A stretch of 64,000 nt of DNA from Sphyrna mokarran (lineage: Eukaryota): NCBI GenBank assembly GCA_024679065.1, contig JAGIQG010000009.1, forward strand, positions 96,844,001 through 96,908,000. Reading direction: 5' to 3'. A program made the position numbers and the translations under genes. A model generated the notes under the pieces. The model was not told the origin of the DNA. It made no database searches and worked only from the letters and a program-made list of their open reading frames with translations. This document shows, in pieces, positions 3,301-48,700 of the stretch. Within the stretch, counting starts at the first letter, position 1. Every line of letters starts with the position of its first letter.

Positions 3301-3656
3301 AGTTTGCATTTATTGACTGCGGGCAACGTTGACTTCCAGGAGCCAACAGGAAATAAAAATGGACCAGTGACCATTACTTGCACATTTAAAACCGTAATAA
3401 TTCACCATCATATGAATAGCCTCAAATTTGGAAATCTGCCTATTGGTATCATTGATTTGTCAAGCTTACTTCTCTATCTATTCAAATGTCCACTCTCAAC
3501 CTGCAACAGTACCTGAATTTGACATCAGTAGCACCAATGCAAGAATCTGGTGTGTCCACCCATCTTCCGATTGCAAACCGGGATCACTCAAAATACTTTC
3601 TTACCGGCGAACGCGGTCATTATCCAGATTATCCCGATAATACGGCTGAATTTCAT
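284..3656 (-). CDS. NCR3: NKp30/NCR3-like receptor, paralog 1; partial gene (leader + V-J Ig exon + stalk microexon; TM/cytoplasmic exons presumably left of the window)
   Basis: Exons 3656-3605, 1160-810 and 304-284 are all GT-AG and phase 1. They join to [154 protein letters not shown] and CKVELMG resemble human NKp30 EVRNGTPEFRGRL and CRVEVLG (from memory). Confidence 0.85.
810..1160 (-). CDS. NCR3: NCR3-like 1 Ig V-set exon with built-in J-like motif
   Basis: Acceptor ctacag at 1161, donor G|GTAAGT at 809, 351 nt, phase 1-1. Canonical Cys-Trp-DxGxYxC and YGAG..VTV. Confidence 0.93.
2590..2890 (-). mobile_element. HE1-type V-SINE (variant ending ...AATAAATAAACTTTAA); same variant at ~6270-6510(-), ~13735-14035(+), ~25970-26245(-), ~56485-56890(+), ~57230-57495(+)
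   Basis: tRNA-derived A/B boxes plus V-domain TTCTCCCCGTGTCTGC..GGGTTTCCTCC. Confidence 0.85.
2920..3240 (+). mobile_element. HE1 V-SINE (CR1-type tail); same type at ~5255-5565(+), ~11800-12115(+), ~18425-18725(-), ~22610-22925(+), ~25035-25330(-), ~27505-27810(-), ~33920-34235(-), ~44535-44855(-), ~48800-49130(-), ~49310-49625(-), ~58780-59140(+)
   Basis: GTGGTTAGCACTGCTGCCTCACAGCGCCAGGG head, V-domain, and GGCCTCCTTCTGCACTGTAG tail. Confidence 0.88.
3605..3656 (-). CDS. NCR3: NCR3-like 1 signal-peptide exon (MKFSRIIGIIWIMTAFA)
   Basis: ATG at 3656, hydrophobic 17 codons, phase-1 donor G|GTAAGA. A strong acceptor (tttcctccttttatcctacag) opens the exon at 3692, so a 5'UTR exon lies further upstream (candidate donor at 3921). 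Confidence 0.8.
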
Positions 3657-8273: not shown

Positions 8274-11200
8274 TAGAACATAGAACATAGAACATTACAG
8301 CACAGAACAGGCCCTTCGGCCTTCGATGTTGTGCCGACCAAAATAAAAAGCAATGCCCCTCCTAACTAAATCATTCCCTTCTCTTCCATATACTTATCAA
8401 GTAACCTCTTAAACGCCACCAAACTTGGCGCATCTACAACAGCTGCAGGCAGGGCATTCCAATCCCTAATCACTCTTTGAGTAAAGAACCTACCTCTGAT
8501 ATCCGTCCTATAACTCATACCCCTTAATTTAAAGCTGTGTCCCCTGTGCTAGCTTTCTCCATCCTAGGAAAAAGGCTATCACTGTCCACCCTATCTAAAC
8601 CTCTAATCATCTTATATGCTTCAATAAGATCCCTTCTTAGCCGCCTCCTTTCTAACGAAAACAACCTCAAATCCTTCAACCTCTCTTCATAGGACCTGCC
8701 CTCCATACCAGGCAACATCCTGGTAAACCTCCTCTGTACCCTCTCCACAGCCTCCACATCTTTCTTATAATGCGGGGACCAGAACTGCACACAATACTCC
8801 AAGTGCGGCCGCACTAGAGTTTTGTACAGCTGCAACATGATGCTGCGACTCCTAAATTCAATCCCCCTACCAATAAAAGCTAAGACTCCATAAGCCTTCT
8901 TAACAACTTTTTCCACTTGACTGCCTACTTTCAGGGATCTATTGACACATACACCAAGATCCTTCTGTTCCTCAACACTATTAAGAGCCCTACCATTAGC
9001 CATATACTCTACACATTTATTGTTCCTGCCAAAGTGCATTACCTCACACTTTTCCACATTAACCTCCATTTGCCACCTCTCGGCCCAGTTCTGCAACTTG
9101 TCCAAGTCACTCTGTAAACTAAAACACCCCTCTTCACTATCTACCACACCACCAACTTTAGTATCATCTGCAAATTTACTGATCCATCCCTCAATACCCT
9201 CATCCAGATCATTTATAAAAAATTACAAACAGCAGGGGCCCCAAAACAGACCCCTGAGGTACACCACTTGTCACCGAACTCCACGATAAATATCTCCCAT
9301 CAACCACCACCCTCTGTCTTCTATCTGCTAGCCAATTCCTAATCCAATTAGCTAATCACCCTCTATTCCACACATCTGCATTTTCTGTAGAAGTCTTCCA
9401 TGGGCCACCTTATCAAACGCCTTACTAAAGTCCATATATACTACATCAACCGCCTTACCACCATCCACCTCTCTGGTCACTTTCTCAAAAAACTCAATGA
9501 GGTTAGTAAGGCATGACCTACCCTTCACGAAACCATGCTGACTATCCCCAATCAATTCATTTCTCTCTAAATAACTATAAATCCTATCCCTAATAATTCT
9601 CTCCAATACCTTGCCCACCACAGAAGTAAGACTCACTGGCCTATAATTCCCAGGAAGGTCTCTCTTCCCCTTCTTAAACAATGGGACCACATTCGCCATC
9701 CTCCAGTCCTCCGGAACCACACCCGTAACCAACGAGGACCTGAAGCTCAGAGCCAGAGGCTCTGCAATCTCCTCTCTTGCCTCCCAGAGAATCCTAGGGT
9801 AAATCCCGTCCGGCCCAGGGGACTTATCCAACTTCAAAACCCTCGAGAATTTCTAGCACATCCTCCCTATCTACTACAATACTTCCCAATTTGCAAGCCT
9901 GTACCTCAGTGTTCTCCATAGCTACATTTCCAGCACTCTGCGTGAATACCGAAGAGAAATATTTATTCAGTGCCTCACCAATCTCTTCAGGCTCCACGCA
10001 CAACTTCCCACTGCTGTCTATGACTGGCCCTAATCTTGCCCTAACCAATCTTCTATTCTTAACACATCGAAAGAAAGCTTTAGGATTCTCCTTAATCCTA
10101 TCAGCCAACATCTTCTCGTGTCCCCTCTTAGCTCTCCTCAATTCCCTTTTTACCTCCTTCCTGGCTAATCTATAGCTATCCATTGCACTATCTGAGCCTT
10201 CAAGCCTCATCCTGACATAAGCCTCCTTTTTCTTCTTAACCAGCAAATCAACTTTTTTCGTACACCAAGGCTCTCTTACTCGTCCATTTCCTCCCTGCCT
10301 GACAGGGACATACTTATCAAGGACTCGCAGCAGCTGCTCCTTGAATAAGCACCACATTCCAGATGTTCCCAGTCCCTGTAGTGCCCTAGTCCAATCTATG
10401 CACCCTAATTCTCTCCTGATGGCCTCATAATTACCCTTCCCCCAGCTATAACTACAGCCCCAGCTTCATGCCTATCCCTGTCCATCACTAAGGTGAACGT
10501 AACCGAATTGTGGTCACTATCACCAAAATGTTCACTAACTTCCAAGCCTAACACCTGGTCTGGCTCATTGCCCAGCACCAAATCCAATGTAGCCTCACCT
10601 CTAGTTGGCCTATCTACATACTGAGTCAAAAAAACCTTCCTGCACACTTTGTACGAAAACTGACCCCTCTAACGAGCTAGAGCTAGAGCTATTCCAATCA
10701 ATATTAGTAAAGTTAAAGTCCCCCATAACAATTACCCTATTACTTTCACTCCTGACCAGAATTGACTTTGCAATCCTTTCCTCAACCTCTCTAGAACTAT
10801 TAGGAGGTCTGTAAAAGACTCCCAACAGGGTGACCTCTCCTCTCCTGTTTCTAATCTCGGCCCATACTACCTCAACAGACAAGTCCTCATCAAACTTCTT
10901 TTCTATCACCGTGATACAGTCTTTGACCAATAACGCCACTCCTCCCCCCCTTCTACCTCCTTCTCTACTCGGACTAAAGCATTTGTACCCCGGAACCTGC
11001 AACATCCATTCCTGTCCCTGCTCTACCCAAGTCTCTGAAATGGCCACAACATCGAAGTTCCAGGTACTGGTCCAAGCTGCAAGTTCCCCCCCCTTATTGC
11101 GAATACTCCTTGCATTAAAGTATACGCATCTCAAACCATGCCCCACCCCACCCGTACGCCGCTGTGTTTTACAACTCTCTTCTATAACCCCCTTACTCTC

Positions 11201-11625
11201 ATCCCTCTCAGCATCCCAACTACTTAGGATCCCACCCCCCCCACCCCGAATCAGTTTAAAGCCCCCATCATAGCCTTAGCAAATTTTCCCCCCAAGATAT
11301 TAGTCCCCCTCTGGTTCAGGTGTAGACCATCTCTCTTGAAGAGGGCCCACCTATCCCAGAATGAGTCCCAATTGTTAAGGAACCTGAACCCCTCCCTCCT
11401 GCACCATCCACGCAGCCATGAGTTCAAACTATCCCTTTCTCTGTTCATCTCTAAACTATCTCTTGGCACAGGCAAGAGTCCAGGGATAACCACTCTGCCT
11501 GTTATGGACCTAAGCTTCCACCCTAACTCCATAAATTTCTGTTTAATATCCCCTTCCCTTGTCCTACCTACATCATGTGTCCCCACATGAACTATGACTT
11601 GGGGCTGACTCCCCTCACCCTTAAG
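8274..11625 (-). mobile_element. Young 5'-truncated CR1 (HER1-like) LINE: ORF1 esterase C-terminus + ORF2 APE endonuclease/RT, frameshifted
   Basis: Consecutive minus ORFs: GTHDVG...DGLHLN (SGNH esterase), YFNARSI/ISETW/MGDFN/SDH (APE), KSPGPDG/YRPVSLTS/QHGF/YMDFSKAFD (RT), [12 protein letters not shown]. (CTATGTT)n 3' tail at 8274-8295. Confidence 0.95.
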
Positions 11626-14308
11626 AAATGTTTTGGGTCATTTCGATTCATTTGGGGACAATATAAATATCAGAAAGTTATTCACATAATAACCTTCCTG
11701 CCAACTAACACCACAAAAACTGTTTCACAGTAACCCTATTGTTCTACATATGGTAGACCTTAATTGCCCCACCACTGACAATCTTCACTGGGAGGCTACT
11801 CACTGGCACAATGTTTAACACTGCTGCCTCACAGCGCCAGGCACCTGAGTTCGATTCCCAATTCTGGTCACGGTCTGTGCAGAGTTTGCACAATGTCTGC
11901 AAGGGTTTCCTCCAGGTGCTCCAGTTACCTCCCACAGTCCAAAACTGTGCGGGTTGGGCCGATTGGACATTCTAAATTGACCTTCAATGTCGGGAGACAA
12001 GCTAGGTTAAATGCATCGGTTATGGGGATAAGGCTTGGGTGGAATTGTGGTCGTTGCAGACTCGATGGGCCGACTGGACTCCTTCTGCACTGTAGGTATT
12101 CTGTGATTCTATGTTCCATCTCTGGGCCTGGGCAATTTTTGACGACAAGCGCTTCAACAGATAAGTGTTCTCTAATTCCGCTCTAATTGTCAATTAGATG
12201 GGAGGTTGCGGCCCAATAGTTTATTCTGGCTCAGATATTACACTATTTTGATTGTCACATAATTACTTTGGTTCTGAACCTCTCTCCCTGACAGTTAGCA
12301 TGGAAAGATTTTGAATGAAAAATTACCACATTACAAGCGATGCCCACATCCCGTCAATGAATAAAAAACTCACCTACTTAAAGACCAATTTCTGGTAAAT
12401 CTGCTATTATCTTAAAGATCGCATCGATTAAGAATCAAATATTTATGTTTAATCTGCTCCTGACAGAATTGACGTTAATAATCGTCATTTTTACAGTAAT
12501 CTGGACTAGTCCATAAATCTACATTTCTCTAGCACATATGATTTGACATCCAACTGGTGAGATATGTGACAGGATTTTCTAATTTGCATAGTTCGGTCAT
12601 ATTAACAGATCAAACAAAATGCCATTCTTCACAGGGATTAGGTGTTAATTTGTCTCAATGTTCTGAATTCGGTTCTAATATTAAGGTTACAGATTGTCAG
12701 TCTGCCAGACGTTGACCATATTGAAGCTTCCCTTATTTCAGATGTGATCCATATGGTTCCAAACCAAGGACGGTATTCCAATCCGATTGCAGTAATTTGA
12801 GCATTAATGTCAGGTTAACATTTTCAGGTCAGTACTTAGGGAGTGCTAAACTGTTTTCATCTATCAAATGGTATTATAATGTGTGATCCTTGTACACTTT
12901 CAGGTGAAGATAAAATATCCCTTGCTTCTTGAAAGCAAAATTATGCAGATGCTGGAACTGAAACAAAAAAAAGCAGAAAATGCTGGAAAATCTCAGCAGG
13001 TCTGACAGCATCTGTGGGGGGAAATAGAACCAATGTTTCAAGACACGATGACCCTTCATCAGGGCTGTGATCAAAGGGTCCTCTGATCTGCTGAGATTTT
13101 CCAACATTTTCTATTACTTCTCTACAGGTAAAAGCCAAATATTGCTGGTATTTGTGAGAATACAGACTAGTAATGCATCAATTTGAATCTGAATTTGAGA
13201 GCTTCAAGCAGAGAAAGATAGATTTCTTTGTGTGTTGCTGAATATTGGAAAACCTTATTAGCTTTATTTTATTGTTTGCATTAACTTTATATAGATGAAG
13301 CGATATCATTGATTAAGGAAAATATGTTGATGTCAAGCTTAGTTGACGGTACCTCTCATTTCTTTTGTGGACGAAAATTCCATACCTTTGAAACACAGAA
13401 TGAACAGTTGATTTCTACACCTACTGATTGTGTAGTGCAGAGCTGAATAACCTGGCTTTGCTTTTCAGGTCATGTCCCCCTAACCTGGACAGCCAATCAG
13501 TGCAATAGGTCCCTCTCTATAAATCTTACTAATTGCTTTGGAAAACCTTAGAACTTCGTTCAAATCACTTCCCAATATTGCCCATTCAAGAGAACAGGAG
13601 GTTCGTGTATTTAGCCCCACCGCACAATGGTGCTATGTAGTCTCTACGACACAATCAGTTAGCATGTTCAGCATGTTCAACCAAAAGGATAGTGGTTCAA
13701 TTCCACCCAGAGATGAAAAGTGATCATTTTTGGAGTGGCACAGTGGTTAGCACTGCTGCCTCGCAACGCCAGGGACCCAGGTTTGATTCCCATCTTGGGT
13801 GGCTATCTGTGTGGAGTTTACACATTCTCCCCGTGTCTGCGTGGGTTTCCTCTAAGTGTTCCAGTTTCTTTCCACGGTCTATAGATGCGCAGTTTAGGTT
13901 GATTGACCATGCTAATTGCTCCCTCAGTGTACCCAAACAGGGGCCAGAGTGTGGTGGCTAGGGGATTTTCACAGTAACTTCATTGCAGTTTTAATGTAAC
14001 CTACTTCTGGCAATAATAAATAATGTTTAAACTTAAACAATTTAACCCTTGAAACCTGATTCTGCAATACATGTTTCCGACATCAATATATGATTTTGAT
14101 TGTGTAGCGCAGAGCTGTACACATTACACAGACATGGTCTAAGCAGAGACTTCCATAGCTACAGAAATTTTTCTCCCTTTATTTCGAGTGTATACCATTA
14201 ACCTTACTGCCTGTCTTGAACAACTCCCAAAAATGGTCATCAACAAGGTCACAACTTGGCTTTCAATCCTACAATTTTTTAATTTTAGCGTACTGACATG
14301 CATGTGGC

Positions 14309-14955: not shown

Positions 14956-15649
14956 GTGGCTTTTACAGAATTCGATCTTAATATCCGAATATAACTCACT
15001 AATAGCTGTTTCTCCGTCTACACCTTTAGTTACTTCCACAACAAGGACATGACCTATCCCTTACAAATCCATGGTGGCACTCCATAAATAATTTAAACTT
15101 CATAAGTGTGCAGCCATTCTATCCTCAAATCAAGTTCCCAACAACTGCCCCACCACAACTTCATTTCTTACTGGGATCATCAAAAACATCAGTCGTTTGT
15201 ACCAGACAGTCTTCATTACAGTGGAACGTCAGTGTTACTTCTGATCTGTTGGTGATTTGCATTGTTCGATGTAATAGACATCTTGTCCACAGTATAAAGT
15301 ATGGCTCAATCAATAACGTCTGGAACATAATAGCGTTCTGTCTGGGCTAATACGAATTGTTGCGTAGTTTGTGATTAAGGTGATATTTTCCAGTAAGAAC
15401 ATTGCTCATTCTGTATTTTATTAACTGTAATCAGTATTGAAATCTCTAACAACCTGGTATTTACACGTGCCATGTTCGTAAAGAAACAATGCACATTGAC
15501 AGCGGTATCTTTGTATTCAATCCGAAATAGATTTGATGGATTAACTGATTGGTCCGAGTCATGCTAAATAGTGCAATTCTTGCTGTCCACATTGGTGGCG
15601 CTGTTCACGTTTCTGGTTGCAATTCTTTTCAACCGCAAGTCCCACAATT

Positions 15650-15846
15650 CTATGATGTTTTCTTCTTCACTGATGCATACTGGTCAAGTACATTTTTAGT
15701 CTGCTTGCTCTATAGTAATAAAGCACATGAAACAGTCAATATACAAGTAAATGGAGGAAAACATGTATGAAGGAGAAGATGGGTGAGAATGGAGAAAGAC
15801 GTTGGGCAATATACTAACCAAATATTGGTAAGAATTTGTATAAGAG
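15650..15846 (-). CDS. Candidate distal cytoplasmic exons of NCR3-like 2 (28 nt 15846-15819 + terminal 15709-15650): xSYTNSYQYL SKQTKNVLDQYASVKKKTS*
   Basis: ttttaag|..|gttagt, then a 109-nt intron, then tactatag|AGCAAG..TAG. AATAAA on the minus strand at 15417-15422. The upstream splice partner is not resolved. Confidence 0.55.
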
Positions 15847-16374
15847 CTTAAAAGTTAAATAAAGGAACGGGTTTGCCCGTTGATGAAATTTGAATCTTAT
15901 GTATAATAAATGCTTGTTACATAGAAAAATCTCCAACATTTTCATTGGCGTGCAAAAACTGAATGGGCTTCCATTAACTTCGAATGCTTTCTTCTTTATG
16001 GTATATTTCGCTTAAAGGAGCTGAAAAGCCCTGGAGAAACAAGATTTCCTGGCAGATTTCATAGAATGTAGGTGTCACTTGCATGGCCTCACTCTGTTTC
16101 CAAAGCATTATTACCCTTCCTATCTGAGTGGATTGCTACTTTGAGAGAGTAGTCAGTCAACCATAGAGAGAGTAGACTGTCAACCATATTGCCGTGGGGT
16201 CTGGAGTCGCATATATGCCAGATCTCATAAGGACAACCGTTTTCTTCACCAAACAGCGTTAAGTGAAGCAAATGTTTTTGTTACAATCCATTGCAGTTTC
16301 ATAGTTACCATTACCGAGAATAGCTTTGAATTCCAGATTTATTAACTCAATGCAAATTTCACCAATTTGAGGGA

Positions 16375-16730: not shown

Positions 16731-17149
16731 AAAATCCCCATGCTGTTATTTGAAACAGTTGCCCCCAAAAGATTTGGCTGGATCTCTGGATTACTGGACG
16801 AGTCGCGTTAATATTACACCATAGACCCATTCCTCCTCCAAAAAATTGTGGTTAATCAAAGAAATCAGCACTGATTTCTTAAAGAAAAATTATGCTTGAT
16901 TAATTGATTGAATTGTTTGATGAACGGACAGAAAGGATTGATGAGCATAGCGTGGCGAATGTTGTGTGTATGAGCTTACCCATAGCCTTTGGCAGTATGT
17001 CTGTTGCAAATTCTAAACTCTAAATTCTAAACATTAGCAAGACGATGGGCGTGTGGATCCAGCATTGGCTTAGTGAGAGATAGGAGGGAGCAGTCTGCAC
17101 ATAATAAGTAGGAACTGCTACCCCTGGTGGATGGATCGAGAATACATCT

Positions 17150-17457
17150 ACCAAATAGCCTTTTTCCTCGGATGGAGAAAGCTAGCACGAGGGGACATAG
17201 CTTTAAATTAAGGGGTGGTGGTTTTAGGACAGATGTCAGAGGTAGGTTCTTTACCCAGAGGGTGGTAAGGGTATGGAATGCCTTGCCTGCGTCAGTTGTA
17301 GATGCGCCAAGTTTGGTGGCGTTTAAGAGGTTAGTAGATAAGTTTATGGATGAAAGGGGAATGGTTTAGGTTAGAGGATCACTGCTTATTCCTAATTGGT
17401 CGGCGCAACATCGAAGGCCGAAGGGCCTGTTCTGCGCTGTAATGTTCTATGTTCTAA
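17150..17457 (+). mobile_element. Short 3' fragment of a related CR1
   Basis: SLFPRMEKASTRGHSFKLRG... and the same GTTCTAT tail. Confidence 0.9.
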
Positions 17458-19547
17458 ATCTTCACGAAATCTTGGCAAGCAAAATAACCCCACCTTCCCC
17501 AACTTTACTTTGCAACTGATGTTTGCATACTTGGAAACATTCATGTGTCTACTATGCGATCTCGGCAACCTTCACATCCATCCTAAATTGAGGCGCCCAA
17601 AACCATAGGAGTTGAGGCCAGAGTACAGTTTATATAGGTTTATTGTCGCTTCTCGCTTTTACTTTCAATATTCCAGTTTCTAAAGACCAGTGATTCGTCA
17701 ATTATCGTTTTATAATGACCGAGACTAAGATCAAATTAAGATGCAGATTTATTTTTAATTAGGTGAATTTAAATGCCAGTAATGCGGTGGAGCATTAGCC
17801 TGGGCGCATTGCTAGCCCGGTAACATTGCCACTAGCACCTCCCGACACCCACACCAATTATACATAGACGTTCAGAGAATTATAAAATGATTCCGGAGAT
17901 ATGAGTAATCCCTAAGAGATAAGAGATTGATATTTTGAATAAGAATGCGGTCTGCCCTCTGATGCTGAATGCCTGTAATTCTTTGCAGAAGCCTCTCTAC
18001 TTTGCCTCGTTTAGCCTTCTTTAAGACATTTCTAGAAATCTATGTCTTTGATCCACCTTATGTTCGCCTATCCTGGCCTCCAGTTCTGCGACTCGAATTC
18101 TATTTCGTATTGCTGTTATGAAGTATATTGAGACGTTTTACCAATATTTGCACTACACAAGTGCCAGGCAAAGGCTATGATGCACTTAAATACCTGATAT
18201 TAAAATTCAACAGCGTTACAACATCTGAATTCCAAACATCCAACCTCAAGGGGTCACCATTGACCAGAACCTGAACTGGGCCAGTCATCTCAGTGCTGTG
18301 GTTGGAAGATCAGATCGGAGGCTGGGATTCTGGGCGAGTAACCCACCGCCTATGTCCCCAGCTCTGTCCCCTACCTACAAGACACCAATTAGAACTGTGA
18401 TTATAGATTCGTAATTCTCCTAAAGTATAGAACAGGCCATTCGGCCCATTGAACCAATTCCCAGGTCCTCTCCCCGTCCTATCCTCATAAGCCGACACAT
18501 TTCCTATGGTTAATCCACCTAGTCTAAACGTCCTGGGATACTAAGAGACAATATTCATGGACAATCCACCTGCACATCTTTGGATTGTAGGAGGAAACCG
18601 GAGCATCCAAAGGGTCCGAAGGAATCCTACGCAGGCACGGAGGGAATTTACAAACTCCACACAGTTAGCCAAGGCTGGAATTGAACCCGAGTTCCTGGAG
18701 CGGAGGCAGCAGTGCTAACTATTACAACAACCATTGTCCAGGGAGAGGGCACTTTCAGCACTCAATTAAATTGACACCGTCCAGAACAAAGCCACTAGCT
18801 TGATTGGCATCCCCACCACTAACCTTTACATTCGCTTCCTTTAACACCACTACAAAATGTCATAGCATGTGTCATCGACAACATGAAATCATCAAAGCTT
18901 CTTCGTCAGCTCATTCCAAACCTGCGATCAGTAACACCGACAAGAGCATGGACAGCCGACATAGGGGAACGACCCAATCAGTACGTTCTCCTCAAAACCC
19001 TACACAATCCTTCCAACTATATCTGACACTCACTTAGAATCCTGGAAACCCCCGTTTTAACAGTACAGTGGGATTCCGACACCACACGACCTTAGCTGGT
19101 TCCCGATGGTAACTGCCGACACCTTGTCACGGGCAATTTGGAAGGAGCAATGCTCTCCGGCCATGTCAGATACGGCACCAATTCATGAAATAATACACGT
19201 GAAACAAATGCGCTATTTAAATGCACGTCATTGTTGCCACTATTGTGATATGAAATTATCTCCCAATAAGACTGGGTTTACATAATGGATTTCCGCCACT
19301 GGTTAAAGGATTAACGGGGTTTATTTTGTGAAACTTCTGGCGGTTTTTACTCTGAAGCACTTGATTCGCATGTGGGGTTGCGCTTAAATCGTAATATCGA
19401 GACAGGGAATATATTTTTCGCCTCGATTTCATTAACTGTAAGTGTACGTACCACACCGTTTAAATCGGTCTCAATCACCGCACCGACGAGGTCTATCACG
19501 TCTAAAAACAAAGGGATACAATTCTAAAACGAGCAAAAGGTAGGTTG

Positions 19548-19597
19548 CTATAAATGCACATGATAGTTCTGGTAAACAGGCATCGATGATAAGCACC
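19548..19597 (-). CDS. NCR3: NCR3-like 2 proximal terminal exon ([16 protein letters not shown])
   Basis: Acceptor gacctacag, phase 1, TAG at 19550-19548. AATAAA on the minus strand at 19320-19325. Confidence 0.6.
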
Positions 19598-22500
19598 CTG
19601 TAGGTCAAACAATTACATAACTTTAACAGGCAGTTTGTAACATTCGCTGCGTACAATGTCTAATAGTACACCATATAGTTTGGTTGCAGCGTATACCTTA
19701 TCGATAAGACAAAAAAAAGTGCATTTTATATTTCATAACAACATTTGACAGTACAATAATAAAATACACTTTAATATGAAGAACCTTTATTTTTCCCTCA
19801 TTACTATAGGGATAGGTGTTGGCTATGCGTTTAATGCGTTTTAATAGATTGTGGCAAAACCCTTATCTGCTTCACGCACGTCCTTCAGGGAAATCTGCCA
19901 TCCTTCTCTTGTCTGACAGCCTCAGAAACCTTCCAGCCTTTCAGCAATGTTTTTACTTTAATTATTTCGTGGGGCATCGCTGATAATGTCAACATTTGTT
20001 GCCCCCTATTAATTGCCCTGAATTGCCATTTCAGTGGGCAGTTAAGAGTCGAGCACTTTACTATGGCTCTGGAATCACACGTAGGCCAGATCAGATAAGG
20101 ACGGCAGATTTCTTTCCCTGTAGGACATCGGTGAGCCAGTTGGGGTTTTCCAGCGGCTATAGTTGCAAGATCGCCTCCAGATTGACTTTTCACACGCGGT
20201 TAATCCGTGACTTTTTTTCTAAAGTGGTACAGCAAACATCTCAATTGTTTGAAAGGCAATCCATATGGGCAATAAATATTGGCCTTGTCAGTGATGCCAG
20301 TATGGAATCATAGAATCACAGAATCCCCTACAGTGCAGAAAGGAGCTATTCAGCCCATCGAGTCTGCACCGACCATAATATCCACCCAGACCCTATTCCC
20401 ATAACCGCATGTAATTACCCTAACTAGTCTCCCTGGCACTAAGGGGCAACTTAGCATTGCCAAACCACCTAACCCGCATATCTTTGGAGTGTAGGAGAAA
20501 AAAGGAGAATGTCATTTTTTAAAGCACTAACCAGACTACAAGAAATTCGAAAGGCGAATATGGCCAATACTATCTGCCAAGGGTAAAACGAAAAATCCTT
20601 ACCGAGCTGGTCAATTTCGGAGTAGAACTCACTGAACAACAAAGGAAAGAGATTAGAGTGAGATTGGTTCGAAACATGTGGGACACCTCCGCTGAACACG
20701 AAGGTAAAAAGTGATATCTTGGTATATTTCTACTCACCATTGAGGAGGCGGGGGTAAGTCTGTGAAGATACAAACAATAAATAAAGAGACCATAAGTATG
20801 TAACAAAATTGCATTTAGCCATGTCTGAGTTTGAACATTAGCTATAATCAATGATAAGTATTCATCGGGAGGGCACTGAGAATTAGAGAAGGTCTTGTCT
20901 GCAGCTATTACATTGTCCCTTCATTATAGCAACAGCTTCTATACCACTGCAGGCAACGCACTGAATCTATCTTGTATCCACATCTGAAGGTGCAATGTTT
21001 TACTTTCAATCCAGGATAGAATGAGCGGAAGGTGGTGCTCAGCACAACAGAGCTCCATTCAACTGAACACGTGTAGTTGATCCGACAAATCAAAACAATA
21101 AAATAATCCTATGTTGCAGTGATTCTGGTGGAACTGTAGCGTTGTTGAAGTATAGATAACATGATTCTCCTACTAGCCGTCATTCCAATTCAATAGTAAT
21201 CTCAGTCAGAGATTTGATTAAGGGTCATCCCGACTCCAAACATTTGTTCTATTCACTCCCCAGAGATGCTGCCAGATCTGTTGAGCATCTTCGGTGCTTT
21301 GCTTTCATATTATTGTAGGAATCTAAGTGTCCTTGTTGCCAATACCATCGATAATTTTAACGTGCAGCTTGGAAAACCACGCGAGCGGATGGAGCGCCAG
21401 TTCTTTGCTAAGCGCAATCATAATTTCCGTTGAGTTCTAGAGAGAATAAAATCGCGCAAAACAAGCGGTGTTTCCTCAAGGGCGGAGCAGGTGAGTCCCA
21501 GTATGGGAACAGTGGGTTGGGGTGGCATACCGGGACGAGGAGGTGGCGGACAATGCATTAGCAAACAGGCAATTACACAAGCTACTCTCGAGGTACTTAG
21601 CCAGTTCTATGTTCTATGTTCTATAAACCACAATTCTTACGGAACGTTAGCCTTTGGAAAAATTGCATAAATCTTGAAACTCACCATCCAGGTTGGTTTC
21701 GTCATACACTGCCTCATCCCTTGGTGATAAAAAAAGAGATCAATGTCACTATATTTTTACTCAACTATAGATTAATGCTTAAAAAAAGTGACAAACGAAA
21801 TCAAATCTGAGATTCACCAACCATTCCGAAGGCGGGTCAAATTCTGCAAGAATAATGAATAATGATGAAAAGTTAATATAATCCATCTAAAGATACTTTG
21901 AATAAAAGAAATTGTTGCCATGGCGGGTGGGGTCATGATTATAGAACTTAGATTTACATTGATAAAAATACCCGGGGGAAATTTATATTTTTCAATGAAG
22001 GGGTTAGTTATGCGCTATAGGAAATCGTGTTGCAAATAAATTATCGCTCAGATAGTTGGATTAATATTCAGTTCAGAAGAATGAGATGTGATCTTATTGC
22101 AACACCTGAGATCCTGAGAAGACTTGGAGGTTGGATACTGGAAGGATGTTTCTCCCTTGTGGCAAATCTAGAACTAGGGGATATAGTTTACGAACAAGAG
22201 GTCTCTTATCTAAGGCTTAGATTAGGGTCATTTTTGTTCTCTCAGGCAGTCGTTAGTCTGTGAAATTCTCTTCCGCAATGGAGGCTGAGTCATTGAGCTA
22301 AGCTACGGCTGAGTTGAATAGTTATTTAATAAACAAGAGTTGGGGGAGGTACGTGCTGGAAAAGACATTGCAAAGTAATGCTGACACACAACCAGATTAG
22401 CTTCGATCTTACTGAATGGCGGAGCAGGCTACAAGAGCTGATTGGCCCCCTCCTGATCCCAACTCTTCCATTCCTGAAATTAACTCCGATTTCCAGGCAC

Positions 22501-25500
22501 ACATGTTGTTACGTTTGATCAATGGATGATCATTTTGGACTGCAATTCAGACTGATTTTACTTTTCACCTTCTCAAAATAGACTGACATTATCTTATATT
22601 TATATTCGGTGGCAGGGTGGCACAATGGTTCGCACTGCTGCCTCACAGCGCCAGGGACCAGGAGTCAGTTTTGGCCTCAGGTCACTGTGTTTGCACGTAC
22701 TCTCCATGTCTGCCTGGGTTTCCTCTGAGTGGTCTGGTTTGCTCCCAAACTCCAAAGCTGTGTGGGTTTGACTGATTGGCTAAGCTAAATTACAACTTAT
22801 TGTCAGGAAAATTAGTAGGATAAATGTGTGGGGCTACAAGCATAAGGCCTGGTTGGGATTGTCATCAATACAGATGCAATACGCCAAGTGGCCTCATTCT
22901 TCACTGTTGAGATTCTATGATTCATTATACAATGTCTCACCAGATGCTTGGATTGGCGGGTACAGAGGAGCAGTGCCAGGCAATACAACAGGACATAGAT
23001 AGGTTGGTAGACTGGGCAGATATATGGCAAATGGAATTTAATCCGGATAAATGCGAGGTGATGCATTTTGGCCGGAAAAATGTAGAAGAAAGTTATAGGA
23101 TAAAAGGTAAAATTATTCGAAGTATAGAGGCGCAGAGAGACTTGAGGGTGCAGGTTCGCAAGTCTCTGAAGGTGTCTTCACAGGTGATTAAGGTGATAAA
23201 GAAAGCGTATAGTATGTTAGCTTTCATTGAAAAGGGTATCGAATACAAGAGTAGGAGTTTGATGTTGCAATTGTATAGAACGTTGGTTAGGCCTCATTTG
23301 GAATACTGCGTCCAGTTCTGGTCGCCGTACTATCGGAAGGATGTGGAGTCCTTGGAGAGAGTGCAGAGGAGGTTTACCAGGATGCTGCCTGGTATGGAAG
23401 GACTGTCTTATGAGGAACGATTAAATAGACTGGGGTTGTTTTCCCTTGAAAGACGTCGGCTTAGAGGGGATCTAATAGAGGTGTATAAGATTATAAGGGG
23501 TATAGATAGAGTGAATGGTGGTAAACTTTTTCCACCTTCAGAAATGGATAGGACGAGGGGTCACGGCCTTAGGGTGAGGGGGGCTATGTATAAGACGAAT
23601 ATTAGAGGGCAGTTTTTCACACAAAGGGTAGTGGGGGTGTGGAATGCACTGCCGAGTAAGGTGGTGGGAGCAGGCACGCTAGGGCTGTTTAAGGGTCTCT
23701 TGGACAGCCACATGAGCGTTATGCAGATAGAGGGATATAGTAGGACTGTTTAACTATGGCTTTTTTTTCCACAGGTAATTCGGTCCATACTTGACCATCA
23801 AGGAGCATGCATTCGGCAGGTGGTGCGAGGACAGCTCTTGGATGTTGATTCATGGGTTGCCTGGTGCTTCATGTCGTAAATGAGTGCTTTATCTGGACCA
23901 TCTGAAGGGCACCATGACAGCTCAGTGACTATCGCTGTAGCTGTGCAGACACTTGGAATTGGGCCGGTGTCTGCGGGAGTTTGTGCGTTCTCCCCGTGGT
24001 TGCGTGGGTTTTCTCCGGGCGCTCCGGTTTCCTCCCACATCCCAAAAATTCGCTCTTAGGCTGATTGGGAAACAAATTGTCCCTACAGTGAGACTCTTCC
24101 ATATTAGGAATAACCTAAAATTAGGATAGGATAATGGAATTGTTACTATATAGTTATGACGGCGGCGCGGGCTCGTTGGGCCGAAGGGCCTGTTTCCCGT
24201 GCTGTGTTGCTCCAAAAAAAATAAAAGAAACTTGTTTGGCATATGTCACGGATCACTCATGGCATTGCACTGATGCAAAAGACAGTATAGCGCATGTACT
24301 CCTAGTCCTGCTGAGAAGAAGGTTCAGTACTATGAATGTGCTTTATTTACCAGGTAGGTTAATTTCATCATAGTTGGAGACATCACTATCCACACAGGGT
24401 CTGCCAAAGATAAAACAAAATTGCATATATATAAAACAAAAGTGCAGAACTATTTTTTTTAAAGTCTCATTACTGCCATAACCACAAACTAACCTTTGTA
24501 CGTCCGTGTCTAATTCTGTGGGAAAAAAAGTCAAAAACTAAGATTTATCATTTAATGCAAACATGCCAAGCACTTTTGATATTGTGAAGAGATGTTACAA
24601 TCACATGAACCTTCTAAATGCAATAATAGTTAGAAAATATAATGAACTATTTTCCTAATGAGAAATATCATTCTGAATGCCTGAATGATGATTCAGTAAT
24701 CGGACTGTTAAAGAGATTGACTCACTATTACATACTCACCATGCAAATTGACAACATCGCAAGGCGCAAAATTGCTTTAGATTCAATGGAAAACAATAAT
24801 GTCACTAAATTGAACATTGGAAAGCATATCATTTTTTTTAATAAAGAAAATATGAGATTTGTCTTCAATGTTCACTGACCGTTGTAATGCTGAAGGATCC
24901 GGTGCTGTTGAAATCAAAGGCAAAAGAGAACAGCTATCATTAACTTTCCTTCTTACAGCCTTCCAAGCACAATCCACCTAAAACGGGATATTAGTTTCAA
25001 CTAAGCTTTACCACTACCGTTTATTTAATCAATTATAGAATCATAGAATCCCTACAGTGCAGAAGAAGACCGTTCAACCCTTCTACCATCCTATCCCTGT
25101 AACCCCACATATTTATCCTGCAATCCCCCTAACCGAGGGGCAATTTAGCATTGCCAGTCAACCTAACCGGCACATGTTTGGAGTGTGGCGGGGGAAATCA
25201 GAACACACAGAGGAAACCAATGCAGACACGGGGAGGATGTGCAAACTCCACACAGACAGTGACCCAAGTTAGGAATAGAATCTGGATCACTGGCATTGTG
25301 AGACAGCAGTGCTAACCACTGTGCCACCACACCACCCCCAACTGATTCAATTTCTTTTTATGTCCGTTTGCTGAATATTAAAACATGTAGTGTAGAATTT
25401 AATGTATCTCACTCAACAAAGTCAGGAAATAGTGCATTGCAGATCACAAAATATAAATATTACAATCTAAAAGTTAATGTTTAAAACAGATAAGGAGGAA

Positions 25501-36909: not shown

Positions 36910-39085
36910 TTCAATGGGATGTGAAAATTGCTGGCTGGACCAGCATTTATTGTCCCTGTCACTGAGAAAGTGATGGTGACCTACCTTATTGAACCATACG
37001 GTATAGGTGCACCCGCAGTGCTGTGGGGGATTCAGAGGCAATGAAATAGTGTGTATATATATCAAATCTGTATAGTGAACATTGTGGAGAGAAACTTTCT
37101 GTTGCTAGTGTTTGGTGTGCGTGCTGTCTTTCCCCTTCTAGATGGTAGTTGTGGTGGGTTTGGAAGGTAATTGTAAGTTCCGAAATTGTAAGTTCCTACA
37201 TCTTGTAGATTGTGCACATTGCTACAGTTGTGCTTCAGAGTTGGAGGAGATGAATGTTTGTGGATGGGGTGCTTTGTCTTGGATGGTGTCAAGCTTCTTG
37301 ACTGATCTTGGAGCTGCATTCATCCAGGCAAGTGGAGAATATTCTATCACTGTCCTGACGTGTGCCCTGTAGATGATGGATAGGCTTTCAGGAAATATGG
37401 AGGTCAACTATATGCTGCAGTATTACTAGTCTCTGGTTTGTTTGAATTGCCACAGTTATTTAAATAGCCAGTCTAGTTCAGTTTCTGGTCGATGATAACC
37501 CAGGATGTCGAACATTGTGGATTCAACCTTGATAATGCTATTAAAGGTCAAAAGATCGCCGAAATCTCTCTTGTTAGAGATGGTCTTTGCTTGGCACTTG
37601 TATGGCACAAATATCACTTGCCAGCTGTCAGCCCATGCCAGGATATTGTCCCAGTCTGGTTGCATTTGAACATGGGCTGTTTCAGTATCTGGGGGGTTGT
37701 GAATAGTGCTGCGCAATCATCGGTGAATAGCTATACTTCTGACCTTATGATGGAAGGAAATTGATTCGTGAAGCAGGGTTGAGGAGTGCTATTGTCGCTA
37801 GATTAATAATCCATAGACCCCACGCAATATCTGGGGTGACCTGCGTTCAAATCCCACCATAGCAGATAGTGATATTTGAATTCAGTAAAAAAAAACTGGA
37901 ACTGAACGTTTAAAGATGATCATGAAACCATTGTCGATTAATGTAAAAACCCATCTGGTCAGTAATGTCCTCTAGAGAAGGAAATCTATCATCCTTACCT
38001 GGTTTGGGATCTAAAACTGTACGGTTGACTCTCAAATGCCCTCTGAACTGGAAGGAAGTTAGGGATAGGCAATAAATGCTGACCCAGCCAGCGACACCCA
38101 CATCCCCATAAATGAATAAAATCAAAGCTGAAGGTGATTGTGCCAACGGCACAACCCTGAAGAACTCCTACAGTGATGTGCTGAAGCTGAATTAATTGAT
38201 CTCTAACCATCACAAACTACCTTCCTTTGTGCCAGGTATGACTTCAACCAGAGGAGAGTTTTCATCTTGATTCTCCTTGACACCAGTTTTGAAGATACAT
38301 CAAGTCAAATGTGACCATGGTGGCAAGGTTGTTATTTTTCAGCTCACATCTGGCATTCAGATCTTTTGTCTATGTATGAATCAAATAATGAGGCCAGAAA
38401 CTGAGTATCCCTGGCAGAATTCAAGCCTGCCATTAGTGAGCAGGTTATTGCTGAGAAAGCACCACTTATTAACACTGTTGGTTACCCCTTTCATTCCTTG
38501 ACTGATGACTGAGAGTAGGCTATTTAGTCAATAATTGGCCTGGCTGGGCTTGGCCTGTTTTTAATGCACAGGACATACCTGGGCAATTTCCCACATTGCT
38601 GAGTAGACTGCAGAATAGGATCTGTACTGAAACAGCTTAGCTAGAGTCATGAGAAGTTCTGGAGCACGTATCCAATGCTCCAGAACGTCCCACAACTATG
38701 CCAAAATATTGTCAGGGCCCTTAACCTTTGTATCATCTATTGCCTTCAGCCGTTTTTTCGTATCACATTGGGGTGAATTGAATTGGCTGAGAATTAGCAT
38801 CTAAGATGCTGTGGATCGCCAGAGGAGATCACGATGGCTCATCCAGCCTACATTTCTTTGCAGAAGTTGATTATAAACATTTCAGCTTTAGCTTTAGCAT
38901 TGATGAGTTGGGCTCTTCCATCAATAAAGATAGAGATATTTGTGGAGCTGACTCCTACTGTGAGTTGCCTAATTGTCCACTGGCCCTGGGTGCAGCAAAA
39001 CTGCAGAGCTTAAATCTGATCCAGTCATTGCAGAATTGCTTAGCTCTGTCTAGCAGTTGTCACTTATGATGGTTTATATTCAAGG
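36910..39085 (-). mobile_element. Degenerate L2/CR1-group LINE with a nested SINE (~37785-38120, plus)
   Basis: Minus ORF fragments IYRAHVRTVIEYSPLAWM, AWADSWQVIFVPYKCQ, GVLQG. A related 3' copy lies at ~51810-52385 (+). Confidence 0.7.
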
Positions 39086-39089
39086 AGTC

Positions 39090-39930
39090 AAGATGATACC
39101 AAAATTGATGGCATAGTGGACATTCAAAAATGTTATCTTCGATTGCAACAGGACCTTGATCAATTGGGCCAGTGGGCTGACGAATGGCAGATAGAGTTTA
39201 ATTTAGATAAATATGAGGTGATACATTTCAATGGATTGAACCAGGACAGGACTTACTCAGTTAATGATAGGGCATTAGAGAGAGTTACAGAACTAAGAGA
39301 TCTAGGGGTACGTGCTCATAGTTCCTTGAAATTGGAGTCACGGGTGGTCAGAGTGGTGAAAAAGGCATTCAGCATGCTTGGTTTCATCGGCTGGAACATT
39401 GTTGAAATTGTACAAGACGTTGGTGAGGCCACGCTTGGAATATTGTGCACAGTTCTGGTCACCCTGTTATAGAAAAGATATTATTAAACTGGAAAGAGTG
39501 CAGAAAAGATTTACTAGGATGCTACCAGGACTTGTTGGTTTGAGTTATAAAGAGAGGTTGGATAGACTGGGACTTTTGCTCTGGAGCATAGAAGGCTGAG
39601 GGGTGATCTTATAAAGGTCTATAAAATAATGAGGGGAGTCTAAAGCTGGAGGGCATAGGATTAAGGTGAGAGGGGAGAGATACAGAAGTATCCAAAGGGA
39701 CATCTTTTTCACATACAGGGTGGTACAAGCTGCCAGAAATAATAGAAGAGGCGGGTAAAATTTTGTCTTTTAAGGAGCATTTTAGACAGTCATATGGGTA
39801 TGATGGGTATAGAGGGATATGGGCCAAATGTGGGCAACTGGGACTAGCTTTGGAGTTTAAAAAAAAGAGTGACTTGGACAAGTTGTTTCGAAAGGTCTGT
39901 TTCCATGCTGTAAACCTTTAGGATTCTAGG
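39090..39930 (+). mobile_element. CR1 3' fragment
   Basis: LQQDLDQLGQWADEWQ, YKTLVRPRLEYC. Confidence 0.88.
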
Positions 39931-45784: not shown

Positions 45785-48700
45785 GTAAGTATGCTACGCT
45801 TTGTGAACGGCTTCCAGTTATTAAAAGCGTGCAATATTTTTTAAGAAGAATCACCTTAATGTGGATTGCGTTCACTCTTATAAATCATTAGAATGAATGA
45901 ATTGTAAGCCAAGTGCAATTGGTGAACCAGCGGCATCTCCTGGCGAGATATTAAACCGGTTTTCACTTTAGACTCTCACTTCGAAGCATAGTGGAGATGT
46001 CTCCGATATCCCGGCCTTTCATCCTTATTCCAAATGAGAGGACAATTCAAAAACACTGAAAAACAAGGGATCGTTTCACTCATTCCTCGTTGATTTGATT
46101 TGATTTATTATTGTCACATATATTGGAATATAGTGAAATGTATTGTTTCTTGCGCGCTATTCAGATAAAAACATACCGTTCTAAGCTACATAGGAGAGAA
46201 GGAAAGGAGTAGGTGCGGAATATACTGAACATTATTGGAGAGATGTGGGATATTGTGTGAAAATAGATCGCTACTTTTCTTGCACCGGTGACTGTACTTC
46301 ATAACTGAACACGTGTGGAGAGGATTTTGTGCTCCAATTCTTCCTTTATTTTGCTGGTGTAGTTTGTGCTAGCTGCAGGAAACTGGGAGAGTTTCATTCA
46401 GACTAAAGGCTCTTCCTAATGATTAGAGAATCTTCACTACACGGATGCATCCATTTCTTCCTGTATGAATAGGTGTGTGTGTGCATCTGCGTTCACGTGT
46501 GCGTGTGTGAGTGTTTGTGTGATCTGTGTGTGTTTGCTTATGTGTGTGTGTGTGTGCATGCGACTGAGAGTTTGTGTGGAAGTTTGTGGGCTTTGAGTAT
46601 TTGTGTGGTGTGGGCCCATGTGTCTGCTTGTGTGAGTCTGTCTGTTCTTGAATGTGGTGTGTGTGCACATTTTATGTGTATGTGTGTTTCTGTGTGTGCT
46701 CCTGTATGACTGTTTGTGTGAGTCTGTGTGTTTGCATTTGTGTGTGTGCGTAGGTGTGTGTGTGTGTGTGTGTGTTTGGTAGGAGGTGTGAGTTTTTATC
46801 TGGTGGGCACCCGGGTGTCTGTGTGTGACTCCCGTGTGTGTTTGCAAGTGTGAATATGTTTGTGTGTGAGAGAGAGAATAAATGAGCGCCTGCTATGATG
46901 GAAACAGCCTGAGTTTGTGTGAATGTTTATATGTGTACGTGCATGAGGGTGCTAGTGTACACACAAGTCTGAATGTATAGATGTAGAACATTACAGCACA
47001 GAACAGGCCCTTCGGCCTTCGATGTTGTGCCGACCAAAATAAAAAGCAATGCCCCTCCAAACTAAACCATTCCCTTCTCTTCCATATACTTATCAATTAA
47101 CCTCTTAAACGCCACCAAACTTGGCGCATCTACAACAGCTGCAGGCAGGGCATTCCACTCCCTAATCACTCTTTGAGTAAAGAACCTACCTCTGATATCC
47201 GTCCTATAACTCATACCCCTTAATTTAAAGCTGTGTCCCCTCGTGCTAGCTTTCTCCATCCTAGGAAAAAGGCTATCACTGTCCACCCTATCTAAACCTC
47301 TAATCATCTTATATGCTTCAATAAGATCCCCTCTTAGCCGCCTCCTTTCTAACGAAAACAACCTCAAATCCTTCAACCTCTCTTCATAGGACCTGCCCTC
47401 CATACCAGGCAACATCCTGGTAAACCTCCTCTGTACCCTCTCCAATGCCTCCACATCTTTCTTATAATGTGGGGACCAGAACTGCACACAATACTCCAAG
47501 TGCGGCCGCACTAGAGTTTTGTACAGTTGCAACATGATGCTGCGGCTCCTAAATTCAATCCCCCTACCAATAAAAGCTAAGACTCCATATGCCTTCTTAA
47601 CAACTTTATCCACTTGACTGCCTACTTTCAGGGATCTATTGACACATACACCAAGATCCTTCTGTTCCTCAACACTATTAAGAGCCCTACCATTAGCCCT
47701 ATACTCTACACATTTATTGTTCCTGCCAAAGTGCATTACCTCACACTTTTCCACATTAAACTCCATTTGCCACCTCTCGGCCCAGCTCTGCAACTTGTCC
47801 AAGTCACTCTGTAAACTATAACACCCCTCTTCACTATCTACCACTCCACCGACTTTAGTGTCATCTGCAAATTTACTGATCCATCCCTCAATACCCTCAT
47901 CCAGATCATTTATAAAAATTACAAACAGCAGGGGCCCCAAAACAGACCCCTGAGGCACACCACTTGTCACCGAAGATGTATATCTATCATAGATCATATA
48001 TCATATATCATATATATATCATATATCATAGATGTATATCATAGATATCATATATCATAGATATATGATCATATATCATAGATGTATATCTATGTACATA
48101 GCAGATGAGAGCAGGCTCGCCTCCAAGCTACAATCCCAAGTGCAAATCACACAAGATACCTTACCAAGCAGCAGGATTACATCTTGTGTCAAGAAAAAAA
48201 CACATGCAGCCCTTGGTGAAATTGCACAATGCGGCTGTACAACAAAATTCCAGGCGGTGCACTTGATTGCATGATGTCAAGTTTGTTTTATCTAATACGA
48301 ATGGCAATCCAAATAATACAGTGTTGAAATCTGTTTTTGTCAGCACGGTGCCATTGCCTACCTTCTAACCCAAGAGCCTGAACGGCCCAAACATCTTAAG
48401 TTATACTAGTCCTTTAATTTTGAAACTTCTGGAAAGCCTGTTGCAAAGACAAAGCAGCAGCACTTAGTGCGAATGTCTGCCCTTTGCTACATATACATTT
48501 GATGATCCATTCATCAGTCTCTGATGGGTAACTGGTTGAGTTCCTATGGTGTGACGGTTCGTTTTGCCCAGTCTGCTTTCCAGTTGAAAAATGAACCTAG
48601 AGGCAGAATGAAGTGAGCAGGGAGCGTGGACTCTTTTCAAACCGAAGTTTTCAGATCCGACTTACGTCTAAGCACCGAAATTGAAAATGAATGTCTAATC

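What the first reader, a model, noticed from the sequence alone, without database searches (positions are those of the whole stretch)
15650..15846. Hidden distal exon pair giving an ITAM-like alternative C-terminus
Seen: a 28-nt exon (phase 2-0, xSYTNSYQYL), a 109-nt intron and a terminal exon SKQTKNVLDQYASVKKKTS*, with AATAAA ~230 nt past the stop. Joined, they give YQYL-x10-YASV, which has ITAM-like spacing (last position V rather than L/I). The proximal end at 19597-19548 (YQNY, a YxN Grb2-type motif) has its own AATAAA at a similar distance. Inference: any phase-2 short microexon (e.g. 20759-20738, or a weak 25-nt candidate at 19696-19672) could splice here, giving mutually exclusive tails with different signalling. 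Human NCR3 isoforms a/b/c also differ by alternative last exons.
Basis: partly seen in the sequence, partly recalled or inferred. Interest (0 to 1): 0.75.

Follow-up and report, generated by a model that had tools for sequence, protein, structure and literature searches.

The report
Shark NKp30-like receptor's conserved last exon
The last exon of this shark immune-receptor gene matches the horn-shark counterpart, but the proposed activating (ITAM) tail is likely not made; the exon likely joins a different, overlooked exon and is predicted to end in a docking site for Csk, an enzyme that dampens immune signalling.

Summary
The DNA is as described, but only half of the pair holds up. The gene is an NCR3/NKp30-like receptor (IgV, uncharged TM, multi-Tyr tail). 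Its horn-shark orthologue (XP_067865364.1) ends in a clear homologue of exon 15709-15650 (8/19 identical; YASVKKK vs YSTVKKK). With it, 15 coding exons close a 306-aa frame that skips the 28-nt 'exon', so YQYL-x10-YASV is not formed. From the nearest real donors the 28-nt piece is read in other frames. The 28-nt, 25-nt and YQNY exons have no homologue and middling splice scores. YASVxK fits published Csk-SH2 sites (SIT, PAG, Hic-5); it fails ITAM and ITIM consensus. The receptor is more likely a self-signalling brake than an activator. Alternative tails are predicted in horn shark (8 of 9 models lack the motif, 7 through a likely LINE-derived exon). No RNA data could be obtained, and only one orthologous tail was found.

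The parts
32103..32145 (-). Leader exon (43 coding nt, exit phase 1)
   Evidence: 12 of 15 identical to horn-shark leader by tblastn; donor 10.9 bits
29247..29585 (-). Single-exon VJ-type IgV domain
   Evidence: Pfam V-set E 6e-12; best PDB hits human NKp30, E 1.6e-16; 75/112 identical to horn X4
26306..26434 (-). Stalk/transmembrane exon, no K/R inside the hydrophobic 21-mer
   Evidence: 19/42 identical to horn X4; hydropathy
25707..25893 (-). Tail unit 1: micro-exon 25893-25872 (22 nt, phase 1-2) + exon 25744-25707 (YEDI)
   Evidence: 3/6 and 7/12 identical to horn X4
24740..24904 (-). Tail unit 2: 24904-24880 (25 nt) + 24774-24740 (no Tyr in either species)
   Evidence: 4/7 and 4/11
24351..24515 (-). 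Tail unit 3: 24515-24494 (22 nt) + 24400-24351 (SNYDEI, fits ITIM consensus, identical in horn shark)
   Evidence: 2/6 and 10/16; motif count
21685..21843 (-). Tail unit 4: 21843-21822 (22 nt) + 21719-21685 (YDET; horn YHDI)
   Evidence: 3/6 and 4/11
20603..20759 (-). Tail unit 5: 20759-20738 (22 nt) + 20631-20603 (YSEI; His in horn shark); exits in phase 1
   Evidence: 4/6 and 3/9
19452..19501 (-).
   Evidence: rank 1 of about 14,250 positions for the horn segment; best of 20 AG..50 nt..GT candidates, 19 vs -2, 17 of 10,000 shuffles; acceptor 9.4, donor 7.1 bits, rank 3 of 682
15650..15709 (-). Last coding exon, entered in phase 0, 19 aa + stop, carries YASVKKK (Csk-type motif)
   Evidence: 8/19 identical to horn X4 last exon with same length
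15417..15422 (-). AATAAA, likely poly(A) signal of the conserved form (228 nt past stop)
   Evidence: sequence; weak on its own, P about 0.19
15819..15846 (-).
   Evidence: rank 25 of 682; no homology to the horn penultimate segment (rank 5,559 and worse); acceptor-anchored match to horn majority tail rank 36-114 of 219
19548..19597 (-).
   Evidence: acceptor rank 17 of 277; absent from 9 of 9 horn models
19672..19696 (-).
   Evidence: donor 2.1 bits, rank 66 of 271; exon rank 58 of 682

Best explanation
Exon 15709-15650 is likely the ordinary, conserved last exon of a shark NCR3/NKp30-like receptor gene, likely spliced from an overlooked 50-nt exon (19501-19452) rather than from the 28-nt piece, so that no ITAM would be made and the tail is predicted to end in a single Csk-docking tyrosine (YASVKKK). 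Shown: homology, exon sizes and phases, a closed 306-aa frame, an uncharged TM, motif fits. Inferred: with no TM Arg/Lys the receptor would not pair with CD3zeta/FcRgamma and would signal through its own tail. After ligand binding a Src-family kinase would phosphorylate the acidic Tyr motifs (YEDI, SNYDEI, YDET, YSEI) and the terminal Tyr; the terminal site would recruit Csk, as PAG Y317, SIT Y169 and LIME do, and SNYDEI could add an SHP-type site. The net output would be dampening, and tails lacking the last exon would lose the brake.
For: Orthology: only long relatives found are horn shark and catshark; V domains group together 94/94. Exon-by-exon match of all 14 exons after the leader in order, phases chain, 921 nt. 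Terminal exon rank 1. 50-nt exon. Conserved route: 0 ITAM (strict or loose), 1 ITIM, 1 Y[AST]xVxK; horn X4 the same plus 1 ITSM. Table I of PMC2194115: YASV occurs in 2 of 13 listed Csk sites (SIT Y169, IGF-IR Y943), YSTV in 1 of 13 (Hic-5 Y60), K at +5 in 7 of 13. NKp30 signals through a TM Arg and has no tail motifs (PMC6514059); here 0 K/R in the TM 21-mer. 10 of 11 named paralogues carry at least one ITIM.
Against: No RNA evidence for any junction. One orthologous tail only, from computer-predicted RefSeq models whose read support I could not see, and the motif-bearing form is 1 of 9 models. The 50-nt exon is only 4/16 identical, and unanchored it barely exceeds noise (19 vs 18; 21.3 vs 20.3): the case rests on length, phase and splice sites together. 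The peptide-library consensus for Csk wants K/R/Q/N at +2, here S/T. Y[AST]xV is a short motif that other SH2 domains may bind. The catshark orthologue has an Arg in its TM and its model has no such tail. The tree group is not starred (94, threshold 95).
Confidence: 0.6

Rival explanations
1. One reading: a phase-2 donor (20738 or 19672) splices to the 28-nt exon and then to 15709, giving an ITAM-like YQYL-x10-YASV tail that recruits Syk/ZAP70.
For: Both routes are open frames (289 and 307 aa) with one loose ITAM match; 10-residue spacing lies within the broad x6-12 definition (PMC9052152); the GTTAGT donor and 109-nt gap resemble the gene's micro-exon units; one bamboo-shark paralogue (P0163) has a strict ITAM-pattern match in its tail.
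Against: No Tyr at that place in the orthologue; 0 of 9 models use such an exon; needs skipping of two conserved exons or a 2.1-bit donor; last position V fails the consensus; splice score rank 25 of 682; DNA similarity to the five real units is at background (z 0.1-2.4).
Confidence: 0.05
2. Same gene structure as the best explanation, but the terminal Tyr works mainly with SHP-1/SHP-2 (or another SH2 protein), paired with upstream SNYDEI, and not with Csk.
For: Paralogues end in ITIM pairs whose last motif is also Y-A-x-V (P0028, P0039, P0047); SNYDEI fits ITIM and is identical in both sharks.
Against: The terminal motif has D (horn: E) at -2 and fails ITIM and ITSM consensus (PMC8631942); K at +5 is kept in both sharks as in Csk sites; LIME's putative ITIMs bound no SHP.
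Confidence: 0.2
3. The tail is an activating or mixed adaptor scaffold (Src-family/Nck/Vav-type docking on the acidic Tyr motifs), with the last exon a minor regulatory add-on and most transcripts ending earlier (read-through of 19452 to the AATAAA at 19325, or the 15846 or 19597 acceptors).
For: 8 of 9 horn models lack the motif; read-through of 19452 gives an open 34-residue Tyr-free end with AATAAA 22 nt past its stop; LIME binds both Lck and Csk.
Against: The horn majority tail looks LINE-derived and has no counterpart here; none of the alternative ends in this window has a homologue; the binding preferences of the acidic motifs are recalled, not tested.
Confidence: 0.15

Closest known systems
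Heterodontus francisci NCR3-like, XP_067865360-369 (isoform X4 = XP_067865364.1)
   Same: Same leader, V (75/112), TM without K/R, five micro-exon units, 16-residue penultimate segment, 19-residue last exon with Y-[AS]-[ST]-V-K-K-K
   Different: Tyr of unit 5 is His there; 7 of 9 models end in a likely LINE-derived exon absent from this intron; 3 of 9 skip the TM exon
Human NKp30 (NCR3), isoforms a/b/c
   Same: Best solved-structure match of the V domain (E 1.6e-16); tail variation by splicing at the 3' end (PMC5371597)
   Different: NKp30 uses a TM Arg and CD3zeta/FcRgamma, has short tails from splice variation within exon 4; this gene has no TM charge and 12 tail exons with 5 Tyr
Csk-binding transmembrane adaptors PAG/Cbp, SIT, LIME
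   Same: Multi-Tyr tail with one Y-[AST]-x-V-x-K site; PAG too has only wide-spaced 'ITAM-like' pairs that bound no Syk/ZAP70 in cells (PMC2213442)
   Different: They have very short ectodomains and (PAG, LIME) a CxxC palmitoylation motif; this protein has an IgV domain, no CxxC, and no sequence homology was sought or claimed
Nurse shark NCR3 family (Kinlein et al. 2021; QTT61898.1)
   Same: Same family; the second gene in this window groups with QTT61898.1 (100/99)
   Different: The studied gene falls in a different clade (with horn X4 and catshark). The paper could not be read, so whether it describes this subtype is unknown

Membership tests
NCR3/NKp30 family | Single-exon VJ-type IgV closest to NKp30 | tested here: met
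   One 339-nt exon; top 4 of 405 PDB matches are human NKp30, E 1.6-2e-16, next 2.6e-10; orthologue named NCR3-like
NCR3/NKp30 family | Arg in the TM for CD3zeta/FcRgamma pairing (human receptor) | tested here: not met
   No K/R in best 21-mer here or in horn shark; Arg present in the catshark orthologue. Also absent from nurse shark QTT61898.1, which is named NCR3, so it is not required for the shark family
NCR3/NKp30 family | MHC class III linkage | tested here: inconclusive
   A complement MG1 exon lies at 51323-51574; Pfam MG1 2e-13, C4_MG1 below cut-off, only PDB hit C5, E 0.0024; no genome held
NCR3/NKp30 family | Binds B7-H6 | not tested
   No shark B7-H6 sequence was fetched
ITAM | YxxL/I-x6-12-YxxL/I (PMC9052152) | tested here: not met
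ITAM | Both tyrosines kept in the orthologue | tested here: not met
   Horn X4 has Phe at the first Tyr's position and no Tyr in that segment
ITIM/ITSM | S/I/V/LxYxxI/V/L or TxYxxV/I (PMC8631942) at the terminal Tyr | tested here: not met
   D at -2 here, E in horn shark; the one ITIM of the tail is SNYDEI in exon 24400-24351
Csk SH2 docking site | Y-[A/S/T]-x-V, often K at +5 (Table I, PMC2194115) | tested here: met
   YASVKK here, YSTVKK in horn shark; +2 differs from the library consensus
Csk SH2 docking site | Phosphorylation-dependent binding of Csk | not testable with these tools
   Needs phosphopeptide or cell assay
Transmembrane adaptors (PAG/LIME type) | Short ectodomain and juxtamembrane CxxC | tested here: not met
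   IgV ectodomain, single juxtamembrane Cys; works-like claim only

The most novel reading that the evidence does not exclude
A shark NKp30 paralogue is a receptor and a PAG/LIME-type adaptor in one chain: it has dropped adaptor pairing, built a multi-Tyr tail by repeating a micro-exon pair, and ends in a Csk brake kept across shark orders that is switched on or off by last-exon choice (in horn shark through an exonised LINE).
Probability: 0.3. Interest if true: 0.55.

Novelty: new member of a known kind. Interest (0 to 1): 0.3.

Why it matters
Human NKp30 is an adaptor-dependent activator. A shark family member that signals through its own tail and ends in a conserved Csk-type site would show that the early NCR3 family held self-signalling, likely dampening receptors using a brake known mostly from adaptors such as PAG and SIT. 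It also corrects the gene model: the 50-nt exon, not the 28-nt piece, closes the conserved frame. The headline ITAM switch is probably an artefact of joining unrelated AG..GT sites.

Tried and rejected
RNA: no RNA holder listed for 15380-15860; this is no evidence either way, and no reads could be laid. No whole genome held. Tail-fragment search under 171 aa: 0 of 6 candidates scored. Representatives search: 150 listed, no further orthologous tail recognised among the 14 I fetched or by a C-terminal motif scan of the stored proteins. ESM Atlas on the horn tail: one unnamed hit at 0.77, uninformative. Alignment of single exons was unusable. Earlier findings: nothing. Idea that 15846 is a conserved alternative acceptor used by the horn majority tail: a protein-level match at 15827 looked significant (42; 2 of 1,000 shuffles) but nucleotide-level tests ranked 15846 36th-114th of 219, favoured another site (18193; 1 of 150, then 17 and 44 of 150 with the whole tail forced), and were null unanchored (17.8 vs null mean 17.8); whole-window best hits were antisense LINE copies, so rejected. 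LSVMP/LSSMP likeness between horn tail and the YQNY frame: post hoc, rank 30 of 14,219 for the whole tail, rejected. Idea that the 50-nt horn segment splits into 22+28 nt with the 28-nt piece as orthologue: ranks 5,559-13,675, rejected. Idea that the last exon belongs to the downstream gene: its V is at 1164-811 and a candidate leader near 3650, rejected. No structure or complex prediction was run: a phospho-motif in a disordered tail is not tested by it.

Full report
Observation. An AATAAA within 250 nt is expected with P about 0.19 (54 on this strand), so neither signal proves an end.

The gene. A minus-strand IgV exon at 29585-29247 (Pfam V-set) has human NKp30 as its top 4 of 405 PDB matches. 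Two homologue searches for long forms gave 3 of 130 and 5 of 571 candidates; the close ones are a horn-shark gene and a fused catshark model, which group with this V at 94/94, just under the starring threshold (16 rows). The horn-shark gene has 9 stored proteins (XP_067865360-369); these are predicted RefSeq models and I could not see their read support. Exon by exon the window matches isoform X4: leader, V, TM, five pairs of a 22-25-nt micro-exon (phase 1->2) and a 29-50-nt exon (phase 2->1), then two more exons; phases chain to 921 nt, 306 aa, 15 coding exons.

The last exon is real. The X4 last exon finds 15709, frame 0, as its best site in six frames of the window (46 vs 29; rank 1 of 14,246; 31.0 vs 21.8); same 19-residue length, 8 identical, YASVKKK against YSTVKKK.

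Its partner is another exon. Between unit 5 (exit phase 1) and the last exon (phase 0) X4 has 16 Tyr-free residues, i.e. 50 nt. That segment's best site is 19499 (rank 1 of about 14,250), inside an AG..50 nt..GT exon 19501-19452 of phase 1->0: best of 20 such candidates (19 vs -2), reached by 17 of 10,000 shuffles, and independently rank 3 of 682 by splice score (matrix frequencies recalled). Weakness: 4/16 identity, and without the splice anchors the margin is thin (19 vs 18; 21.3 vs 20.3 against a whole-window null near 23 measured for another peptide).

The 28-nt piece. It ranks 25 of 682, has no likeness to the X4 segment (ranks 5,559-13,675) and only background DNA likeness to the five units. 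The YQYL frame needs a phase-2 donor: 20738 (skipping two conserved exons) or 19672 (2.1 bits). Entered from the phase-0 donor 19452 or the phase-1 donor 20603 it is read in other frames and YASV is lost. The YQNY acceptor lies 96 nt upstream of the true 19501 acceptor and has no counterpart in 9 of 9 horn models; if spliced on at 19452 its stop would sit 96 nt before the last junction, a likely NMD substrate (rule recalled).

Alternative tails. Horn shark: 7 of 9 models end in a 27-residue tail, 1 in the YSTV exon, 1 by read-through of unit 5; 3 of 9 lack the TM exon. I first mapped the 27-residue tail to 15827 (2 of 1,000 shuffles), but nucleotide-level tests did not confirm it. Its best window-wide hits are antisense to LINE reverse-transcriptase copies: top score 29.2, reached by 2 of 200 shuffles; 3 of the top 5 sit 24-27 nt from an intact LEYCVQFW motif and the top hit is, by eye, a decayed copy of the same spot (RVT_1 in two other copies). 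So that tail is likely an exonised LINE with no counterpart in this intron, and the motif-bearing exon is likely the ancestral end.

Mechanism. Shown: no K/R in the TM 21-mer; five tail Tyr on the conserved route, one ITIM (SNYDEI, identical in horn), one Y[AST]xVxK, no ITAM. From papers: NKp30 signals via TM Arg and ITAM adaptors (PMC6514059, passages); Table I of PMC2194115 (section 13 part 1 and passages) lists 13 Csk sites, 2 with YASV, 1 with YSTV, 7 with K at +5, though the library consensus prefers K/R/Q/N at +2; PAG recruits Csk through one Tyr and its wide ITAM-like pairs bound Syk/ZAP70 SH2 in vitro but not in cells (PMC2213442, passages). Inferred: Src-family phosphorylation, Csk docking at the terminal Tyr, net damping. 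I put the gene structure at about 0.85 and Csk as the partner at about 0.55-0.6 of that. Against: single orthologue, motif form 1 of 9 models, an Arg in the catshark TM, and one paralogue (P0163) with a strict ITAM pattern, which shows such motifs can occur in the family (the second match, P0014, rests on a misplaced TM call).

What is known. Passages only were read from PMC5371597 (human exon-4 variants), PMC12272517 (its figure legend credits NKp30a with an ITAM, at odds with PMC6514059), PMC9052152 (ITAM definition), PMC8631942 (ITIM/ITSM), PMC10751288, PMC12227049, PMC11599192, PMC7688343; PMC11302387 and PMC12151841 gave nothing. Kinlein et al. 2021, the shark NCR3 paper, was seen only as a reference entry and is not held; nor is Flajnik 2012. 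Six searches listed no paper whose title or abstract start deals with this tail, but the unread paper and its supplements may describe it. No supplements were read.

Verdict. Terminal exon real and conserved; ITAM-like pair probably an artefact; true partner exon identified; likely a self-signalling, damping NCR3-like receptor. New member of a known family, already annotated in one other shark. Interest 0.3.

Noticed in passing
window 1164-811 (-), candidate leader about 3655-3604: Second NCR3-like gene downstream in the same orientation; V groups with nurse shark QTT61898.1 and the N-terminal V of the catshark model (100/99). In the catshark model the order of the two V domains is the reverse of that here.
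   Followed up: partly
window 51323-51574 (+): Complement MG1-domain exon; Pfam MG1 strong, C4_MG1 weak, best PDB hit C5. C3/C4/C5 identity unresolved; bears on MHC linkage.
   Followed up: partly
P0002-P0010 (horn shark): Majority tail (7 of 9 models) resembles the antisense strand of a CR1-type LINE at one fixed register; likely exonised repeat replacing the Csk-type exon.
   Followed up: yes
P0002, P0004, P0005 (horn shark): 3 of 9 models skip the 129-nt-type TM exon in frame, predicting a soluble form with the tail attached; the window's TM exon is also phase 1->1 with a weak donor (4.1 bits).
   Followed up: no
P0001 (catshark) residues about 430-452: The orthologue's TM carries an Arg where this gene and horn shark have Gly, suggesting an activating version in catshark; the model fuses two genes.
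   Followed up: no
P0163 (Chiloscyllium punctatum XP_072406317.1): A paralogue tail has a strict ITAM-pattern match (YxxL-x8-YxxL) besides an ITIM.
   Followed up: no
window 25893-20603: Tail built of five repeats of a 22/25-nt micro-exon plus a 93-127-nt intron plus a Tyr exon; skipping a whole unit keeps the frame only for some units (unit lengths 60, 60, 72, 57, 51 nt are all multiples of 3), so units are modular.
   Followed up: partly
window 32024-32003 (-): A stretch in the leader intron reads like the horn-shark first micro-exon (5 of 7 residues); chance or a remnant.
   Followed up: no
window 19451-19347 (-): Read-through of the 19452 donor gives a 34-residue Tyr-free end with AATAAA 22 nt past the stop: a candidate intronic poly(A) form.
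   Followed up: partly
window 8524-11637, 17112-17456, 22911-23753, 39044-39472, 47062-48000, 53071-53619: CR1/LINE-type reverse-transcriptase fragments (RVT_1 in the copies tested); assembly gap of Ns near 51130-51290.
   Followed up: partly
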